DNA of 22,825 bases from a virus: UHGV virus genome UHGV-0073937; one strand, 5' to 3'. Under the pieces are notes generated by a model. The model saw only the letters and a list, made by a program, of their open reading frames with translations, did not search any database and was not told the DNA's origin. This document shows, piece by piece, positions 7,290 through 19,336 of the stretch. Numbering within the stretch: the first letter of the stretch is position 1; each line of letters opens with the position of its first letter. The translations under genes and the position numbers were made by a program.

Positions 7290-7479
7290 ACTGCAGGCGC
7301 TGCGTCAGGCGCGCCTTGATTTATTAACCGGTAAACGGGTGGTGTCTGTCCAGAAAGATGGTCGCAGAATTGAATATACGGCTGCTTCTCTGGATGAGCT
7401 TAACCGGGCGATCAATGATGCGGAGTCGGTACTGGGGACAACCCGACGTCGCCGTCGTCCGCTGGGAGTGAGGTTATGA
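7273..7479 (+). CDS. W: Head-tail joining protein, lambda gpW-like
   Basis: 68 aa; LLTGKRVVSVQKDGRRIEYTAASL resembles lambda W; overlaps terL end and portal start as in lambda. Confidence 0.8.
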   Translation: MVTVAELQALRQARLDLLTGKRVVSVQKDGRRIEYTAASLDELNRAINDAESVLGTTRRRRRPLGVRL

Positions 7480-8348
7480 AACGAACGCCTGTCCTGATTG
7501 ATGTGAACGGTGTTCCGCTTCGTGAGAGTCTCAGCTACAACGGTGGCGGCGCAGGATTTGGCGGGCAAATGGCGGAGTGGTTGCCACCGGCGCAGAGTGC
7601 CGATGCGGCCCTGCTGCCCGCGTTGCGTCTGGGGAATGCCCGGGCAGATGATCTGGTGCGCAATAACGGAATAGCGGCTAATGCGGTTGCCCTGCATAAG
7701 GATCACATTGTCGGGCATATGTTTCTGATCAGCTACCGTCCGAACTGGCGCTGGCTGGGGATGCGGGAGACCGCAGCAAAAAGCTTTGTCGATGAGGTGG
7801 AGGCGGCCTGGTCGGAATACGCCGAAGGGATGTTTGGCGAGATCGACGTGGAAGGAAAACGCACGTTCACGGAATTTATCCGTGAAGGTGTGGGCGTTCA
7901 TGCGTTTAACGGCGAAATCTTTGTGCAGCCGGTCTGGGATACAGAAACCACGCAGTTATTCCGTACGCGTTTTAAAGCTGTGAGTCCGAAACGGGTGGAC
8001 ACGCCTGGACACGGTATGGGGAACCGTTTTCTGCGGGCCGGTGTGGAGGTCGATCGATATGGCCGTGCCGTCGCGTACCATATCTGTGAGGATGATTTTC
8101 CGTTCTCTGGTAGTGGACGATGGGAACGGATCCCGCGTGAACTTCCCACCGGGCGTCCGGCCATGCTGCATATTTTCGAGCCGGTGGAGGACGGGCAGAC
8201 CCGTGGGGCTAATCAGTTTTACAGCGTCATGGAACGGCTGAAGATGCTCGATTCCCTGCAGGCAACACAGCTTCAGTCGGCCATAGTGAAGGCGATTTAT
8301 GTCTATCATCTCACCGTAGTTGCCCGCATCGTTCGCCAACTCCACTGA
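7476..8348 (+). pseudogene. B: Portal protein (lambda gpB-like) N-terminal fragment, truncated by island insertion at ~8301
   Basis: First ~275 codons collinear with lambda gpB (GNARADDLVRNNG, FEPVEDGQTRGAN, QSAIVKA); after codon AIY the frame reads into unrelated sequence and stops at 8348. Confidence 0.85.
8289..8301. repeat. Left copy of 13-bp imperfect direct repeat (AAGGCGATTTATG) = putative att core (attL)
   Basis: Matches AAGGCGATGTATG at 18579-18591 (12/13); both copies lie exactly at the breakpoint in the portal reading frame. Confidence 0.65.
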
Positions 8349-8424
8349 AACCCTTGCTGCGTCTGGAATGTCGTTTTCCATACTTTTGATGACCGTTCAT
8401 CACCCTTCCAGTTTTTCGCGGTTT

Positions 8425-8478
8425 TGTGTATTGCAATGTGTATTGCAAATTGGCGATCGGGATGGGTGTGTATTGCAA
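8425..8478. repeat. Three copies of TGTGTATTGCAA (candidate integrase arm-type binding sites) upstream of int
   Basis: Perfect 12-mers at 8425-8436, 8437-8448, 8467-8478; two related copies (GTGTATTGCA) at 18483-18506 near other island end. Confidence 0.55.
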
Positions 8479-8496
8479 ATCTCTTGAGGGCTTTTA

Positions 8497-9738
8497 ATGG
8501 CTATTGAAAACAAACTCAGTGACAAACTGTTAAAGAGTCTTGTCGGAAAACGGCAGGACAAACAAAAAACAATAGCGGATGGGCGCGGGTTGTCTGTGCG
8601 TGTAAGCATGGTTGGGGGGATCAGCTTTGTTTTTTACTATCGTCTTGGTGGCAGGGAATCCCCTCCGGTATGGCTTACACTTGGTCGCTATCCTGACATG
8701 TCTCTTGCAACGGCCAGGCGCATGCGTGATCAGTGCCGTGAATGGCTGGCTGAAAATCTGGACCCCCGCAGGCAAATAAAACTTGCTGCCGAAAAAACTA
8801 TGCAACCAGTGACCGTAAGGGATGCGCTGTTTTACTGGTACGACAATCACGCCACAACAGCCAGAAAAGAGCATGAATATTTAATAAAACGATTTGAAAA
8901 GCATATCTTCCCCTATATCGGTGATATGGCTATAGAACAGTGCAAATTACACACATGGCTTACCGTCTTTGACAGGATCAAAAAAAATGCGCCTGTTATG
9001 TCTGGTGCAATTTTTCTTGATATCAAACAGGCGTTGCGTTTTTGTCGCGTCAGGCAATACATCGCGTGCGATCCCTTTGGAGATATTAACGTAAGTTATG
9101 TCGGGGGCTCATCCGGTATAAGGGATCGCGTTCTTAATATCAATGAAACCGCTGATGTATGGTCTTATGCTTACGGTAATAATTTGCTAACTCTGTCATC
9201 AATATATAACCGAAGAATAATGGTTATCTGCCTGGTGTTTGGTTGCCGACAGCAGGAGGCGAGGCTATCCACCTGGGACGAATGGGATTTAAAAAACTGG
9301 GTATGGACAGTCCCAAAAGAGCACAGCAAAAACAAGGAGGCTATAGTAAGGCCTGTTCCTGACGGAATAAAACAATGGATCGTTAATCTTTACGCAGAAA
9401 CAAAAAATCGCGGTTATGTTGTCGGTTGTGCTTTGCAAAGGGCGACAATAACAGGGGCTGCAAACAGAATATGCAGGCGTCTTGGTCATGATACTAATGG
9501 CTTGTGGTGCATACATGATTTCAGGCGCACATTTTCCACTACGCTTAATGATATGGGGGCGGATCCTTATATTGTCGAACTTCTTTTAGGTCATAAAGTG
9601 AAAGGGGTTGCTGGTGTTTACAATAAAAGCAGGCATATAAAGAAAAAACTTGAGGTGCTTAATATGTGGGTTAATTACCTTAATACGATAGCAGGATTTA
9701 ACAACAACGTTATCGAGCTTAATAAAGAGGTGGTGTGA
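8497..9738 (+). CDS. int: Tyrosine recombinase / integrase, P4-type
   Basis: 413 aa; N-terminal arm-binding-like region (GRGLSVRVS...GGISFVFYYR); C-terminal catalytic region with HDFRRTFST...LLGH...GVYNKS; adjacent to island boundary. Confidence 0.9.
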   Translation: MAIENKLSDKLLKSLVGKRQDKQKTIADGRGLSVRVSMVGGISFVFYYRLGGRESPPVWLTLGRYPDMSLATARRMRDQCREWLAENLDPRRQIKLAAEKTMQPVTVRDALFYWYDNHATTARKEHEYLIKRFEKHIFPYIGDMAIEQCKLHTWLTVFDRIKKNAPVMSGAIFLDIKQALRFCRVRQYIACDPFGDINVSYVGGSSGIRDRVLNINETADVWSYAYGNNLLTLSSIYNRRIMVICLVFGCRQQEARLSTWDEWDLKNWVWTVPKEHSKNKEAIVRPVPDGIKQWIVNLYAETKNRGYVVGCALQRATITGAANRICRRLGHDTNGLWCIHDFRRTFSTTLNDMGADPYIVELLLGHKVKGVAGVYNKSRHIKKKLEVLNMWVNYLNTIAGFNNNVIELNKEVV

Positions 9739-9739
9739 T

Positions 9740-9997
9740 ATGGCAATTTATTCTCTTGTTGATGAAAACGATTTGCGCACAATGAAGGACATTGATCGGT
9801 TCATTCGTGAAAAAGAGTGCATAGCACTTACCACGCTGGCAAACTCAACACGCTGGAAAATGGAGCAGGCAGGTAAATTCCCGCGACGTATCAAGATCGG
9901 TGAACGTGCTGCAGGGTATCGACTTTCAGAGGTTCAGGCATGGATCCGTGGTGAGTGGCATCCTGGATGGAAACCTGGAAAAACAAAACAGCAATAA
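9740..9997 (+). CDS. alpA: AlpA-family transcriptional regulator / excisionase-like protein
   Basis: 85 aa; HTH region IALTTLANSTRWKMEQAGKFPRRIKIGERAAGYRLSEVQAWI resembles AlpA/HTH_17; start ATG overlaps int stop (coupled). Confidence 0.7.
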   Translation: MAIYSLVDENDLRTMKDIDRFIREKECIALTTLANSTRWKMEQAGKFPRRIKIGERAAGYRLSEVQAWIRGEWHPGWKPGKTKQQ

Positions 9998-10010
9998 CCA
10001 GTAAATAATG

Positions 10011-10033
10011 CCCCTCATCACGAGGGGTTTTTT
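10011..10033 (+). terminator. Rho-independent terminator (CCCCTC-ATCAC-GAGGGG + T6)
   Basis: Perfect 6-bp GC stem then TTTTTTG immediately after alpA stop. Confidence 0.7.
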
Positions 10034-10053
10034 GTCTATAAGGTAAAAACGCG

Positions 10054-10632
10054 ATGAATAAAAATATTGCCGTGACGGGCAAGGGGTACGCTCGTCCAGT
10101 GAAAAAATTCTGCGATATTCGTGATCTCGTCGTTCTGCGCTTTGATAGTGTGAACGTTCGTGTGGTGTATCTGAACGGCGATCCGTGGTTTGTTGCAAAA
10201 GATGTTTGTGCTGCGCTGGAACTAACCAATTCGCGTACGGCGTTGCAGATGCTTGATGATGATGAAAAGGGAGTAAATTTAACTTACACCCCAGGAGGAA
10301 ATCAGAATATGAGAATTATCTCTGAGTCAGGTTTCTACAAACTAATAGCCCGCAGCCGCAAAGCAACGACGCCTGGCACATTTGCTCATCGTTTCAGTAA
10401 CTGGGTATTCAGAAATGTGATACCAGGTATCAGAAAAACGGGGACTTATGGTATCCCGTGGGGTGCATTACAGGATTTTTCCCGCCGTAAAGAGCAATAT
10501 CAAATAAGTGCCAGCGAGAAGGGGAGAGAGCTACAGGCATGTAAGCGCAAAAAGCGTGAGCTGGAGGAAGAAGAAAAAACGCTGATACGTGAATATCAGC
10601 CTGAGTTTTACTTTGGTAACCGCATTCAGTGA
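10054..10632 (+). CDS. Bro-N domain protein (putative antirepressor-like)
   Basis: 192 aa; N-terminal region (VVYLNGDPWFVAKDVCAALELTNSRTALQMLDDDEKG...RIISESGFYKLIARSRKATT...FSNWVFRNVIP) typical of Bro-N; charged coiled C-terminus. Confidence 0.65.
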   Translation: MNKNIAVTGKGYARPVKKFCDIRDLVVLRFDSVNVRVVYLNGDPWFVAKDVCAALELTNSRTALQMLDDDEKGVNLTYTPGGNQNMRIISESGFYKLIARSRKATTPGTFAHRFSNWVFRNVIPGIRKTGTYGIPWGALQDFSRRKEQYQISASEKGRELQACKRKKRELEEEEKTLIREYQPEFYFGNRIQ

Positions 10633-10661
10633 CAAAACAAAGGCGACCGGGGGCGGTCGCC
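10630..10661 (-). terminator. Hairpin terminator for leftward small-gene operon (GGCGACCG-GGGG-CGGTCGCC; T-rich on minus strand)
   Basis: 8-bp perfect GC-rich stem; minus-strand downstream sequence TTTGTTTTGTC; sits between convergent genes. Confidence 0.55.
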
Positions 10662-10725
10662 AGTGGGAAAACACTAAACATAAGCACGAGGATGATAGCC
10701 GCTATCAGGTTGGTGGGCAATGTGA

Positions 10726-10935
10726 TCAGCCTGGTGGGCGGTTCCTGTTAGCTTTCATTACCCGGGGCTGTTTATTGAGAAACTCATCAAGCGCAAATTT
10801 TGTAGGCGCTGGTTCTGTATTTGGTGGCATTTGTTTAGCGTGTGCCTTTTCTTTCTGGCGTGCAACAATGCTCTGTAAAAGCAATCTTCGTTGTTCTGCG
10901 AAAATCTCTTCAGTGGATAGGTATTTTTTGCTCAT
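10726..10935 (-). CDS. Hypothetical small protein (leftward switch operon, second gene)
   Basis: 69-aa ORF downstream of 10993..11172 on same strand, followed by hairpin terminator. Confidence 0.45.
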   Translation of the reverse strand: MSKKYLSTEEIFAEQRRLLLQSIVARQKEKAHAKQMPPNTEPAPTKFALDEFLNKQPRVMKANRNRPPG

Positions 10936-10992
10936 AGTGCCGACCTGTAAAGCAATGCGCCGGAGTACCTCACACCACAGCGCTGATAGTGA

Positions 10993-11172
10993 TTATTCTT
11001 GCTCTTTAGCCTTGCGTCGCTGGCGGTATTCAACTTCTCGCTTTAATGCTGCTGTTACAAACTGCCCTGTACTTTCACCAGGCATTTTTACCGCCTCAAC
11101 ATTGTTCATAACTTCATGCGGAACCCTTGCCGCAACTGTTTGTGATTTTGCGTTTACTGCTTTTGTCGCCAT
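10993..11172 (-). CDS. Small putative DNA-binding regulator (possible RHH-type repressor), first gene of leftward operon
   Basis: 59-aa ORF derived by manual translation (below ORF-track size cut-off): MATKAVNAKSQTVAARVPHEVMNNVEAVKMPGESTGQFVTAALKREVEYRQRRKAKEQE; diverges from operator repeats. Confidence 0.45.
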   Translation of the reverse strand: MATKAVNAKSQTVAARVPHEVMNNVEAVKMPGESTGQFVTAALKREVEYRQRRKAKEQE

Positions 11173-11222
11173 GTTGTGTACCCCTCACAAAAAACAAATG
11201 CAGTATGCAGGAAAAAAAACAA

Positions 11223-11274
11223 GTGTTCAACACTTGACGTGTTCAACACCTGGGTTTAAATTGGTGTTCAACAC
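11223..11274. promoter_or_regulatory. Operator/promoter region: three perfect copies of near-palindromic 11-mer GTGTTCAACAC with candidate rightward sigma70 promoter
   Basis: Copies at 11223-11233, 11239-11249, 11264-11274; TTGACG (11234-11239) and TTTAAAT (11255-11261) fit -35/-10 with ~16-nt spacer; lies between divergent operons. Confidence 0.65.
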
Positions 11275-11371
11275 CTTGTTGGTGCAAGGTGCAGAAACGA
11301 CGAAACCCGGCAGTGCGCTAACACTAACCGGGCTTCTAACCACCAACGATAGCAACAGTATCGAGGTAGCT

Positions 11372-11575
11372 ATGAGAAATCATACCACACACCCGCAAGG
11401 GCGGGGCTCGCACAACCTGAATAAATACATCTGGCGTTTTATCGCCCTGAGCACCGCACAACCACGCGTAATACACATCGAGGCCGCCAGCGAACAGGAA
11501 GCCCGGCTGCAATCCCCAACTGGCTGCGTGATGATATTCGCCGCCCGTATTCGTCAGGAGGTATGCCGTGCTTAA
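11372..11575 (+). CDS. Small protein, first gene of rightward operon (possibly Icd-like)
   Basis: 67 aa from ATG 11372 with SD GAGG; MRNHTTHPQGRGSHNLNKYIWRFIALSTAQPRVIHIEAASEQEARLQSPTGCVMIFAARIRQE; family assignment from memory only. Confidence 0.45.
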   Translation: MRNHTTHPQGRGSHNLNKYIWRFIALSTAQPRVIHIEAASEQEARLQSPTGCVMIFAARIRQEVCRA

Positions 11576-14239: not shown

Positions 14240-14480
14240 AATGGTTATCTACCTTGTCTACCTGACTGAAAGAAAATACTTTTATTTCAATGTATTAATG
14301 CAGGTAGATAACTATTTTTCACTGTCTACCTGTTATCTACCTTATCTACCCATTTTTGTAGACAGGTAAGGAGACGGGTAGAGATGAGGTAGACAGCTAT
14401 TTGGGGCTGTCTACCTCCCTGAAACCCGCGCCATTACTGGCCTGATAACTAATCAGGTAGACAAGGTAGACAAGGTGGTG
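14240..14480. repeat. Iteron array (>=10 copies of GGTAGACA / TATCTACC in both orientations) = putative origin of replication
   Basis: e.g. TTATCTACCTTGTCTACC, CAGGTAGATAAC, CTGTCTACCTGTTATCTACCTTATCTACC, GGTAGACAAGGTAGACAAGG; non-coding, directly downstream of rep gene. Confidence 0.75.
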
Positions 14481-16844: not shown

Positions 16845-17228
16845 ATGCAGAATCATTACAATGACCTTAAGCCAATTGCCGAAATGATGTATCCGGATCC
16901 AGCAGTAGAGGAATTAAAGGCTATTGCTGACAAAATGCGTTTAAGTGAACGCCTTGTTGATATGAATCAGGTGATGGAACTTACTACCCTTAGCCGTCGC
17001 ACATTGCTAAACCTTGAGGCTCGCGGAGAGTTCCCCGAACGCGTACAGGTTACGGAAGGGCGTAAGGCCTGGTATTTAAGTGAAGTGATCGACTGGATAA
17101 ACAATATTCCTCGATCTTCTGAATATTGCCGCGTACCTGTCCCAAAAAAGCCAGATGCGGCGCTATGCCTCAAGATTGAGCGTGTACGTCGCAATGCACG
17201 GGATGGTCGCTATAAGTTGATTGGTTGA
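16845..17228 (+). CDS. AlpA-like HTH domain protein immediately upstream of island cos
   Basis: 127 aa; central HTH resembling AlpA/HTH_17 (MNQVMELTTLSRRTLLNLEARGEFPERVQVTEGRKAWYLSEVIDWI); strong SD. Confidence 0.55.
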   Translation: MQNHYNDLKPIAEMMYPDPAVEELKAIADKMRLSERLVDMNQVMELTTLSRRTLLNLEARGEFPERVQVTEGRKAWYLSEVIDWINNIPRSSEYCRVPVPKKPDAALCLKIERVRRNARDGRYKLIG

Positions 17229-18482: not shown

Positions 18483-18506
18483 CGTGTATTGCAGTGTGTA
18501 TTGCGA
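18483..18506. repeat. Two copies of GTGTATTGCA-type repeat near right island end (candidate arm sites)
   Basis: CGTGTATTGCAGTGTGTATTGCGA; same motif as 8425-8478. Confidence 0.5.
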
Positions 18507-18578: not shown

Positions 18579-18591
18579 AAGGCGATGTATG
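18579..18591. repeat. Right copy of 13-bp direct repeat (AAGGCGATGTATG) = putative att core (attR)
   Basis: 12/13 match to 8289-8301; portal reading frame (KAMYAATIESEL) resumes exactly here. Confidence 0.65.
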
Positions 18592-19336
18592 CCGCCACCA
18601 TTGAGAGTGAGCTGGATACGCAGTCAGCGATGGATTTTATTCTGGGCGCGAACAGTCAGGAGCAGCGGGAAAGGCTGACCGGCTGGATTGGTGAAATTGC
18701 CGCGTATTACGCCGCAGCACCGGTCCGGCTGGGAGGCGCAAAAGTGCCGCACCTGATGCCGGGTGACTCACTGAACCTGCAGGCTACTCCGTGTTTGAGC
18801 AGTCACTGCTGCGGTATATCGCTGCCGGGCTGGGTGTCTCGTATGAGCAGCTTTCCCGGAATTACGCCCAGATGAGCTACTCCACGGCACGGGCCAGCGC
18901 GAACGAGTCGTGGGCGCACTTTATGGGGCGGCGAAAATTCGTCGCATCCCGTCAGGCGAGTCAGATGTTTCTGTGCTGGCTGGAAGAGGCCATCGTTCGC
19001 CGCGTGGTGACGTTACCTTCAAAAGCGCGCTTCAGTTTTCAGGAAGCCCGTAGTGCCTGGGGGAACTGCGACTGGATAGGCTCCGGTCGTATGGCCATCG
19101 ATGGTCTGAAAGAAGTTCAGGAAGCGGTGATGCTGATAGAAGCCGGACTGAGCACCTACGAGAAAGAGTGCGCGAAACGCGGTGACGACTATCAGGAAAT
19201 TTTTGCCCAGCAGGTCCGTGAAACGATGGAGCGCCGCGCGGCTGGTCTTAAACCGCCCGCCTGGGCGGCTGAGGCATTTGAATCCGGGCTGCGACAATCA
19301 ACAGAGGAGGAGAAGAGTGACAGCAGAGCTGCGTAA
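18579..19336 (+). pseudogene. B: Portal protein (lambda gpB) C-terminal fragment, additionally frameshifted near 18767-18790
   Basis: MYAATIESELDTQSAMDFILGANSQEQRERLTGWIGEIAAYY... then frame change; second frame continues VFEQSLLRYIAAGLGVSYEQL... to the overlap with C; matches lambda gpB C-terminus. Confidence 0.85.

What the first reader, a model, noticed from the sequence alone, without database searches (positions are those of the whole stretch)
8425..8478. Arm-type repeats (TGTGTATTGCAA) at both island ends
Three tandem or near-tandem copies lie between the left junction and int, and two related copies (CGTGTATTGCAGTGTGTATTGCGA, 18483-18506) lie just inside the right junction. The distribution fits integrase arm-binding sites of an attP, supporting site-specific integration at the 13-bp core rather than illegitimate recombination.
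Basis: seen in the sequence. Interest (0 to 1): 0.45.

Follow-up and report, generated by a model that had tools for sequence, protein, structure and literature searches.

The report
Integrase arm sites of a helper-embedded satellite
The five TGTGTATTGC repeats are real and are most likely the docking sites for the integrase of a small phage satellite sitting inside a prophage portal gene, but this motif has already been published and follows a design known from phage P4 since 1987.

Summary
Observation confirmed. Three exact TGTGTATTGCAA copies lie at 8425-8478 and two near-copies at 18483-18506. All are on the + strand and occur nowhere else in the window.

They lie inside the two ends of a 10.3-kb PICI-type satellite inserted at AAGGCGAT in a lambda-type portal gene. 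This element belongs to the published HE-PICI group B_Phage_portal_2_241 (Tommasini et al. 2023, PMC10111431). That paper already reports the doubled motif tgTGTATTGCantgTGTATTGCa at both attP arms and left the binding protein open (Int arm domain, AlpA or unknown).

My comparisons favour Int:
- Relatives of this integrase nearly all carry a 12-bp-period doublet just upstream of int, with a sequence that differs by clade. It was also found on the far arm wherever that arm was in the DNA held, including fis PICIs.
- P4's annotated "attP arm sequence repeats" have the same 2+2(+1) layout.
- Doublet sequence tracks the Int N-terminal beta-sheet (AUC 0.996), not AlpA (0.80). Fifty-five pairs have AlpA at least 90% identical but different doublets.

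The third left copy is not mentioned in the paper. It is conserved across the portal-site group.

No binding experiment exists. Verdict: interpretation supported, already known, low to moderate interest.

The parts
8425..8436 (+). P'1 arm-type site, TGTGTATTGCAA: first half of the int-proximal doublet
   Evidence: Starts +132.5 from the centre of the AAGGCGAT block, matching the published 132 +/- 2. Invariant in the portal-site group.
8437..8448 (+). P'2 arm-type site, TGTGTATTGCAA: second half of the doublet, 12-bp period
8467..8478 (+). P'3, a third solitary copy (TGTGTATTGCAA), 18 bp after the doublet and 18 bp before the int ATG. Specific to the portal-site (B_241) group.
   Evidence: Conserved as GTGTGTATTG[C/T]A across E. 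coli, Edwardsiella, Serratia, Erwinia and metagenome relatives despite a diverged spacer. Absent from the E-site and C-site HE-PICIs examined. Not mentioned in PMC10111431.
18483..18494 (+). P1 arm-type site, CGTGTATTGCAG: first half of the int-distal doublet
   Evidence: Lies -99.5 from the core centre. Conserved in relatives.
18495..18506 (+). P2 arm-type site, TGTGTATTGCGA: second half of the int-distal doublet
8289..8301 (.). attL core, AAGGCGAT-T-TATG. The 8-bp identity block is where strand exchange must occur. It lies in codon ~271 of the portal gene.
   Evidence: The identity block 'aaggcgat' is listed for group B_Phage_portal_2_241 in the supplement of PMC10111431.
18579..18591 (.). 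attR core, AAGGCGAT-G-TATG. The portal reading frame resumes here.
8497..9738 (+). int: P4-type tyrosine integrase, 413 aa, with an N-terminal arm-binding domain
   Evidence: Pfam PF13356 (residues 7-94), PF22022 and PF00589. Residues 11-107 match PDB 3JU0 and 3JTZ. The AlphaFold model has a four-stranded sheet at 24-65 followed by helix 70-85. The protein is 100% identical to an E. coli cluster of 409 members.
9740..9997 (+). alpA: excisionase/regulator-type wHTH protein, the candidate directionality factor and the rival binder
   Evidence: Pfam PF05930. PHROG 2790 'excisionase and transcriptional regulator'.

Best explanation
The five 12-bp repeats are the arm-type binding sites of the satellite's own P4-type tyrosine integrase.

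In the excised circle the two island ends join into an attP of about 300 bp:
- a tandem doublet about 100-77 bp upstream of the AAGGCGAT crossover block (P arm);
- a co-oriented doublet about 132-155 bp downstream (P' arm);
- a third single site at about +175.

The small N-terminal beta-sheet domain of each Int protomer holds an arm site while its C-terminal domains hold the core. The Int tetramer thus folds attP into an intasome that recombines with the naked AAGGCGAT site in the helper's portal gene. After integration the P' sites sit in attL immediately upstream of int and the P sites sit in attR.

Shown here: the sequence, the positions, the conservation, the co-variation with the Int N-domain, and the homology of the layout with P4.

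Inferred: physical binding by Int, use of the sites in integration versus excision, and a possible second role of the P' sites in damping int expression, as described for P4 and KplE1.
For: 1. Int carries an Arm-DNA-bind_3 domain. This domain is homologous to the solved arm-type binding domains 3JU0 and 3JTZ.

2. The motif is the only repeat shared by both arms. It is co-oriented and lies at -99.5/-76.5 and +132.5/+155.5 from the core centre. This is the same geometry as in other HE-PICI site groups with unrelated cores and as published.

3. Phage P4's record annotates 12-bp 'attP arm sequence repeats' as tandem pairs at -86/-64 and +122/+145, plus a fifth copy at the int ATG.

4. 75 of the 83 Int-bearing loci compared (Int 40-100% identical) have a doublet of two near-identical units at a 12-bp period within about 20-75 bp upstream of int. 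The sequence differs by clade: TGTATTGC, GTGTATCA, TGTATAAA, GTGGGGNAA, GTGYAGTC, GTGTGTAGCA, GGGTACAT. The other 8 fitted none of these patterns. In three of them a class-D-like pair, a diverged pair or a triple repeat is still visible.

5. The matching doublet was found on the far arm in L055, L066, L081, L082 and an E. coli fis PICI, with the same geometry.

6. Motif class is predicted by identity of Int residues 1-100 with AUC 0.996, against 0.836 for the rest of Int and 0.798 for AlpA.

7. No pair with different motifs exceeds 62% N-domain identity. By contrast, 55 pairs have AlpA at least 90% identical yet different motifs.

8. In L030 versus L068 only Int residues about 21-60 have diverged (40% identity against 65-95% elsewhere). 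The DNA doublet is the only replaced block in an otherwise conserved attL.

9. The class-specific residues fall in the predicted beta-strands 24-27, 32-36, 42-48 and 58-65.

10. E. coli hosts both TGTATTGC and TGTATAAAC elements, so the specificity is encoded by the element, not the host.

11. A phylogenetic footprint across five genera keeps all five sites invariant while flanks diverge.
Against: No binding or mutagenesis data exist for this element, and the only paper on it leaves the binder open.

The co-variation test rests on seven motif classes and on non-independent pairs, so shared ancestry inflates it.

The clean AlpA discordance involves the 93-aa AlpA type of classes C and D, not the 74-86-aa AlpA adjacent to int in HE-PICIs. 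Within the HE clade all members share one motif, so AlpA cannot be excluded there by co-variation alone. The only evidence there is AlpA divergence to about 38-39% identity (window versus L008/L009, where the int-adjacent AlpA was the one compared) with an unchanged motif. The still lower values printed for the Xenorhabdus loci L013, L014 and L016 compare a second, 93-aa AlpA-like ORF and are not used.

No IHF consensus was found between arms and core, so the bending element expected in the lambda model is unidentified.

All five sites are direct repeats, whereas P4's fifth copy is inverted.
Confidence: 0.8

Rival explanations
1. The repeats are binding sites of AlpA, the wHTH excisionase/activator encoded right after int. 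AlpA would act as a recombination directionality factor and/or as an activator of the int-alpA operon.
For: AlpA-type proteins are annotated as excisionase and regulator. Directionality factors typically bind direct repeats about one helical turn apart, as noted in the abstract of PMC7498355 and for the five TorI sites in KplE1 attL. The left repeats lie 20-70 bp upstream of int-alpA. The authors of PMC10111431 list AlpA as a possible binder.
Against: In relatives, 55 pairs with AlpA at least 90% identical carry different doublets, while the Int N-domain differs. AlpA identity predicts motif class poorly (AUC 0.80 against 0.996 for the Int N-domain). Within the TGTATTGC class, the int-adjacent AlpA falls to about 38-39% identity (window versus L008/L009) with an unchanged motif. 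An equal doublet sits on the far arm at a fixed distance from 14 different cores, which an operon activator does not explain; the directionality-factor sites read about here (TorI in KplE1) lie on one arm only. P4's homologous repeats are annotated as arm repeats.
Confidence: 0.1
2. The left repeats are only an operator/promoter element controlling int transcription or translation. The right pair is a by-product with no role in recombination.
For: The third copy ends 18 bp before the int ATG. In KplE1 and P4 the int promoter overlaps attL and Int represses itself.
Against: The simple scan found no sigma-70-like promoter at 8200-8700. The right doublet is as conserved as the left one across genera. 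It keeps a fixed distance to the core in groups with different cores. In the precedents, the operator sites are themselves the arm sites, so regulation is an added role rather than an alternative.
Confidence: 0.06
3. The repeats are replication iterons, or a chance or relic duplication.
For: They are short tandem direct repeats within a mobile element that replicates.
Against: A separate iteron field (GGTAGA/TCTACC repeats) lies at 14240-14473, right after the primase gene, where the PICI ori is expected. The exact 9-mer count of 5 compares with about 0.17 expected. The repeats are conserved across genera. At least 89 of 135 doublets found motif-first in IMG/VR are arms of such satellites: 81 by neighbouring genes, 8 more by eye.
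Confidence: 0.02

Closest known systems
Doubled motif tgTGTATTGCantgTGTATTGCa of helper-embedded PICIs (Tommasini, Mageeney & Williams 2023, NAR Genom Bioinform, PMC10111431)
   Same: Identical sequence, two co-oriented copies per attP, and the same distances to the crossover centre. The element here is a member of their group B_Phage_portal_2_241, with identity block aaggcgat.
   Different: The paper speaks of four half-sites. This group has a fifth, conserved copy at 8467-8478. The paper states the motif is unique to HE-PICIs. That holds for the sequence, but the doubled architecture with another sequence is present in fis PICIs and other relatives.
attP arm sequence repeats of satellite phage P4 (annotated in NC_001609; Pierson & Kahn 1987, cited from the reference list seen)
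   Same: A P4-type Int with the same N-terminal domain family. 12-bp units in tandem pairs on both sides of the core, co-oriented with int. The int-proximal pair lies about 120-145 bp from the core and the distal pair about 65-100 bp. There is an extra copy near the int start.
   Different: The unit sequence differs: TGGGGGCAYA against TGTGTATTGCAA. P4's fifth copy is inverted and overlaps the ATG, whereas here it is direct and upstream. P4 integrates in a tRNA-Leu gene (from my own knowledge), not in a phage gene.
KplE1 (CPS-53) IntS/TorI module (Panis et al. 2010, PMC2951348)
   Same: int points inward from attL, so the arm-type P' sites overlap the int control region, and Int represses its own gene.
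   Different: In KplE1 a separate set of five TorI sites lies in attL. No equivalent second repeat family was recognised here. The arm motif differs (it contains TAAA).
Lambda Int arm-type sites P1, P2, P'1-P'3
   Same: A heterobivalent integrase, with five arm sites split 2 + 3 around the core and the triple on the int-proximal arm (from my own knowledge of lambda; the general principle is restated).
   Different: The N-domain family differs (PF13356 rather than the lambda type). No IHF consensus is seen. All sites are direct and the distal pair is tandem rather than spaced.

Membership tests
HE-PICI attP doubled motif (PMC10111431) | Sequence tgTGTATTGCantgTGTATTGCa | tested here: met
   8425-8448 is TGTGTATTGCAATGTGTATTGCAA. 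18483-18506 is CGTGTATTGCAGTGTGTATTGCGA.
HE-PICI attP doubled motif (PMC10111431) | Two co-oriented copies, 81 +/- 2 bp upstream and 132 +/- 2 bp downstream of the attP centre | tested here: met
   Downstream doublet starts at +132.5. Upstream doublet spans -99.5 to -76.5 from the centre of AAGGCGAT, so its inner end is within about 4 bp of the published figure. The paper's reference point is not stated.
HE-PICI attP doubled motif (PMC10111431) | Element is a PICI inserted in, and co-oriented with, a lambdoid late gene, with an Int of the HE clade | tested here: met
   The gene set is int, alpA, Bro-N, D5-type primase, SSB, capsid E, decoration D and Nu1-like TerS, all on +, inside portal gene B. 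attL and attR match the supplement's B_Phage_portal_2_241 entries.
Arm-type sites of a heterobivalent tyrosine integrase | The integrase has a separate N-terminal arm-binding domain | tested here: met
   PF13356, E = 3e-17. PDB 3JU0/3JTZ, E about 1e-6. Beta-sheet plus helix in the model.
Arm-type sites of a heterobivalent tyrosine integrase | Repeats unrelated to the core sequence lie on both arms of attP | tested here: met
Arm-type sites of a heterobivalent tyrosine integrase | Site sequence co-varies with the N-domain, not with the core-binding/catalytic part | tested here: met
   AUC 0.996 against 0.836. Localised swap in L030/L068. fis-targeting Ints with different doublets.
Arm-type sites of a heterobivalent tyrosine integrase | Direct binding by the Int N-domain, and requirement for recombination | not testable with these tools
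   Needs EMSA or footprinting and attP mutagenesis.
Arm-type sites of a heterobivalent tyrosine integrase | Bending-protein (IHF) sites between arms and core, as in lambda | tested here: not met
   No WATCAANNNNTTR or WATCARNNNNTTR in the reconstructed attP. The paper also sees none. This is a feature of lambda rather than of the class as a whole.
Recombination directionality factor (AlpA/Xis/TorI) sites | Site sequence follows the directionality factor | tested here: not met
   55 pairs with AlpA at least 90% identical have different doublets. AUC 0.798.
Recombination directionality factor (AlpA/Xis/TorI) sites | Sites confined to one arm, between the core and the outer Int sites | tested here: not met
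   Equal doublets lie on both arms.
Replication iterons | Cluster next to the replication gene or ori | tested here: not met
   The repeats lie at the island ends. A different iteron set lies at 14240-14473, after the primase.

The most novel reading that the evidence does not exclude
The tandem 12-bp doublet on each attP arm is not peculiar to HE-PICIs. It is the common design of the whole P4-type PICI integrase family. An exchangeable pair, namely about 40 residues of the Int N-terminal beta-sheet plus the matching DNA doublet, can be swapped independently of the core-binding/catalytic part and of AlpA. This would be a modular 'arm code' that insulates co-resident satellites from each other's integrases. 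It would also explain how the HE clade could change core specificity 14 times while keeping one arm motif. A second, weaker reading is that the conserved extra P'3 site between the doublet and the int ATG lets Int throttle its own synthesis from helper late read-through transcription.
Probability: 0.7. Interest if true: 0.4.

Novelty: already known. Interest (0 to 1): 0.25.

Why it matters
The repeats define the functional attP of a satellite that sits inside its helper's portal gene. Knowing who binds them is needed to understand when the satellite excises and whether the portal gene is restored.

The motif itself is already published. The only additions here are:
- comparative evidence that Int, not AlpA, reads the motif;
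- the finding that the doublet design is family-wide;
- the conserved fifth site in the portal-site group.

These points are useful for annotating satellite ends and for engineering orthogonal integrases. They are not surprising to a specialist.

Tried and rejected
- The IHF consensus search in the reconstructed attP found nothing.
- The sigma-70 promoter scan found nothing at 8200-8700. At the right end it found one weak hit at the chance rate. The idea that the TTGCAA of the repeat serves as a -35 box could therefore not be supported.
- I tried to read Piazzolla et al. 2006 on P4 Int binding, but it is not held. I relied on its description in PMC2951348.
- The ICEKp1 paper gave only references.
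- The motif-first scan of IMG/VR assigned 81 of 135 doublets to satellite arms by neighbouring genes, and 8 more by eye. The remaining roughly 46 are low-GC viral contigs with coding repeats or microsatellite-like arrays. The doublet alone is therefore not diagnostic outside enterobacterial contexts.
- Discriminating Int from AlpA inside the HE clade by co-variation was impossible, because all members share one motif.
- In some Xenorhabdus loci my automatic AlpA pick took a second, 93-aa AlpA-like ORF instead of the adjacent 74-aa one. Those particular pairs should be disregarded.
- 23 loci without an AlpA-like ORF within 1.5 kb of int were left out of the pair statistics.
- The iteron and chance explanations were rejected.

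Full report
**What is in the sequence**

TGTGTATTGCAA lies at 8425-8436, 8437-8448 and 8467-8478. CGTGTATTGCAG lies at 18483-18494 and TGTGTATTGCGA at 18495-18506. All five are on the + strand.

The exact 9-mer GTGTATTGC occurs five times in the window, only at these places. With up to two mismatches the 12-mer gives 8 matches against 2.5 +/- 1.6 in shuffles, and no shuffle reaches 8. This is not chance.

**Context**

The repeats sit just inside the ends of a 10.3-kb insertion that splits a lambda-type portal gene. The N-terminal part of the portal gene is 7476-8348. The C-terminal part starts at about 18585.

The insertion encodes, all on the + strand:
- a tyrosine integrase with Arm-DNA-bind_3, Phage_int_M and catalytic domains (8497-9738);
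- AlpA (9740-9997);
- a Bro-N protein;
- a D5/DUF5906 primase;
- SSB;
- a capsid-E homologue and a decoration-D homologue;
- a second AlpA-like protein;
- a Nu1-like small terminase.

The junctions share AAGGCGAT (8289-8296 and 18579-18586). This is followed by T on the left or G on the right, then TATG.

Fifty-two complete E. coli genomes carry at least 80% of the island. The two inspected have it at the same portal position. Relatives in Edwardsiella, Serratia, Erwinia and a metagenome are inserted there too.

**It is already published**

Tommasini, Mageeney and Williams (2023, PMC10111431) describe helper-embedded PICIs (HE-PICIs) integrated in lambdoid late genes. Their supplement lists group B_Phage_portal_2_241 with identity block 'aaggcgat' and attL/attR sequences matching this window.

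They also report the motif tgTGTATTGCantgTGTATTGCa. It occurs in two co-oriented copies per attP, 81 +/- 2 bp upstream and 132 +/- 2 bp downstream of the attP centre. [quoted passage not shown]

Measured from the centre of AAGGCGAT, the sites in this window are at:
- distal doublet: -99.5 to -76.5;
- int-proximal doublet: +132.5 to +155.5;
- third copy: +174.5 to +185.5;
- int ATG: +204.5.

No later paper in the held library addresses the binder.

**Who binds: new comparative evidence**

I fetched 80 loci encoding Int relatives (40-70% identity) from one genome per species.

Most of them have a tandem doublet with a 12-bp period within about 20-75 bp upstream of the int start. Counting the window and two E. 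coli islands as well, 75 of the 83 Int-bearing loci compared fitted one of seven doublet patterns. The other 8 fitted none, though three of them still show a related pair or a triple repeat. The sequence changes with the clade: TGTATTGC (HE-PICIs), GTGTATCA, TGTATAAA, GTGGGGNAA, GTGYAGTC, GTGTGTAGCA and GGGTACAT.

Where the far end of the island lay within the DNA held, the same doublet reappears there, co-oriented. It lies about 82-98 bp before the identity block, while the int-side doublet lies about 136-160 bp after the block start. This holds for:
- L055;
- three fis-inserted islands, L066, L081 and L082;
- an E. coli fis PICI, L084, with CTGTATAAACATYTGTATAAACA at -97 and +136 from the core.

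So the published remark that the motif is absent from fis PICIs holds for the sequence but not for the architecture.

Phage P4, the prototype of this integrase family, has 12-bp 'attP arm sequence repeat' features annotated in its GenBank record. They form tandem pairs at -86/-64 and +122/+145 from the core centre, on the int strand. A further inverted copy lies at the int ATG. This is the same 2+2(+1) design.

**Co-variation**

I took 54 loci with a complete Int, an assignable doublet class and an AlpA-like ORF within 1.5 kb. For all 1,431 pairs I compared doublet class with protein identity.

| Protein segment | AUC for predicting same doublet class |
|---|---|
| Int residues 1-100 | 0.996 |
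| Rest of Int | 0.836 |
| AlpA | 0.798 |

No pair with different doublets exceeds 62% N-domain identity. Fifty-five pairs have AlpA at least 90% identical yet different doublets (GTGGGG against TGTATAAA). In those pairs the N-domains are only 45-60% identical.

In L030 versus L068, Int is 65-95% identical everywhere except residues about 21-60, where it is 40% identical. The attL alignment shows a conserved upstream block, with only the doublet replaced.

The residues most informative for doublet class are about 19-26, 30, 33-35, 41-48 and 52-59. They fall on the predicted strands 24-27, 32-36, 42-48 and 58-65 of the N-domain. The following helix, 70-85, is invariant across classes. The N-domain matches the solved arm-type binding domains 3JU0 and 3JTZ.

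Conversely, within the TGTATTGC class the N-domain stays 56-94% identical while the rest of Int drops to about 40%. This fits one arm motif serving many core specificities.

**Footprint and the fifth site**

I aligned the portal-site group: E. coli (two loci), Edwardsiella, Serratia, a metagenome and Erwinia, with Int 69-100% identical.
- The 21-bp int-proximal doublet is invariant.
- The third copy is conserved as GTGTGTATTG[C/T]A.
- The 18-bp spacer between the doublet and the third copy, and the flanks, have diverged freely.
- The distal doublet is likewise conserved in the four loci where that end was available.

HE-PICIs at the capsid (E) and protease (C) sites lack the third copy. Their int starts about 21 bp after the doublet. 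They have instead a degenerate GCGTTGC about 9 bp upstream of it. The paper does not mention the third copy.

**Motif-first check**

- 49 doublets are followed by satellite genes, including int.
- 32 are preceded by satellite genes.
- 8 more match published right arms by eye.
- The rest are low-GC viral contigs with coding or microsatellite repeats.

**Mechanism proposed**

In the excised circle the two ends form an attP of about 300 bp. Int protomers bridge arm sites through the N-domain and the AAGGCGAT core through the C-terminal domains. They recombine with the bare site in the helper's portal gene.

After integration the P' sites lie in attL just upstream of int. In KplE1, and reportedly in P4, such overlap makes Int repress its own gene. 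That may apply here, possibly against helper late read-through transcription, but it is untested. No sigma-70-like promoter was detected upstream of int.

**Limits**

- There are no binding data.
- The co-variation test uses few classes and non-independent pairs.
- The clean exclusion of AlpA concerns the 93-aa AlpA of classes C and D, not the shorter AlpA adjacent to int in HE-PICIs.
- No IHF consensus or other bending element was identified.

**Verdict**

The finding itself is already known: the motif was published in 2023 and the design in P4 in 1987. The modest additions are the family-wide doublet architecture, the N-domain/doublet co-swap and the conserved fifth site.

Noticed in passing
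window 18579-19336 (ORFs 18585-18875 and 18791-19336): The C-terminal part of the interrupted portal gene has a 22-nt gap relative to the same gene in E. coli SCU-106 (L001). It is split into two overlapping frames. Precise excision of the satellite would therefore not restore an intact portal gene in this strain, and the satellite encodes no portal of its own.
   Followed up: partly
window 8387-8402: A perfect palindrome TGATGA-CCGT-TCATCA lies 23 bp upstream of the int-proximal doublet. It is conserved in the Edwardsiella, Serratia and metagenome relatives. Other HE-PICI groups have different inverted repeats in the same arm. It is a candidate site for AlpA or another accessory factor.
   Followed up: partly
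window 14240-14473: A field of GGTAGA/TCTACC(T) repeats in both orientations lies directly after the primase gene. This is probably the satellite's replication origin.
   Followed up: no
window 8297 versus 18587: There is a single T/G difference right after the 8-bp identity block. attL has T and attR has G, and the same is seen in L001 and L002. This places strand exchange within AAGGCGAT and shows that attP reads ...GATTTATG while the portal gene reads ...GATGTATG.
   Followed up: partly
L023, L028, L030, L043, L044 versus L041, L056, L063, L068 (about 40-110 bp upstream of int): A block CTGTATATTGTTCCAGTGYTTATTGACG upstream of the doublet is conserved across two doublet classes that share nearly identical AlpA. 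It may be the int promoter or the AlpA site of those elements.
   Followed up: no
L042 and L070 (upstream of int); L084 at 20000: Some fis-type relatives have three tandem TGTATAAACAT units instead of two. The E. coli fis PICI has an extra solitary TTGTATAAAT between the core and the doublet. The number of arm sites therefore varies within a class.
   Followed up: no
L086 (Serratia quinivorans) 10001-11504 and downstream: int and alpA lie at the portal site with all three left repeats intact, but they are followed by unrelated genes (methyltransferase, MFS transporter, type VI secretion). No right doublet was found. This appears to be a decayed or rearranged satellite remnant.
   Followed up: no
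window 16845-17228: There is a second AlpA/excisionase-like gene (PF05930; PHROG 2790, E = 2e-48) in the late region of the satellite, between the decoration gene and the small terminase gene.
   Followed up: no
L171, L179, L129, L138, L149, L163 (IMG/VR, GC about 0.26): An unrelated family of low-GC viral contigs carries TGTATTGCTGATTGTATTGC inside what looks like coding sequence. The doublet pattern alone gives false positives outside enterobacterial prophages.
   Followed up: no
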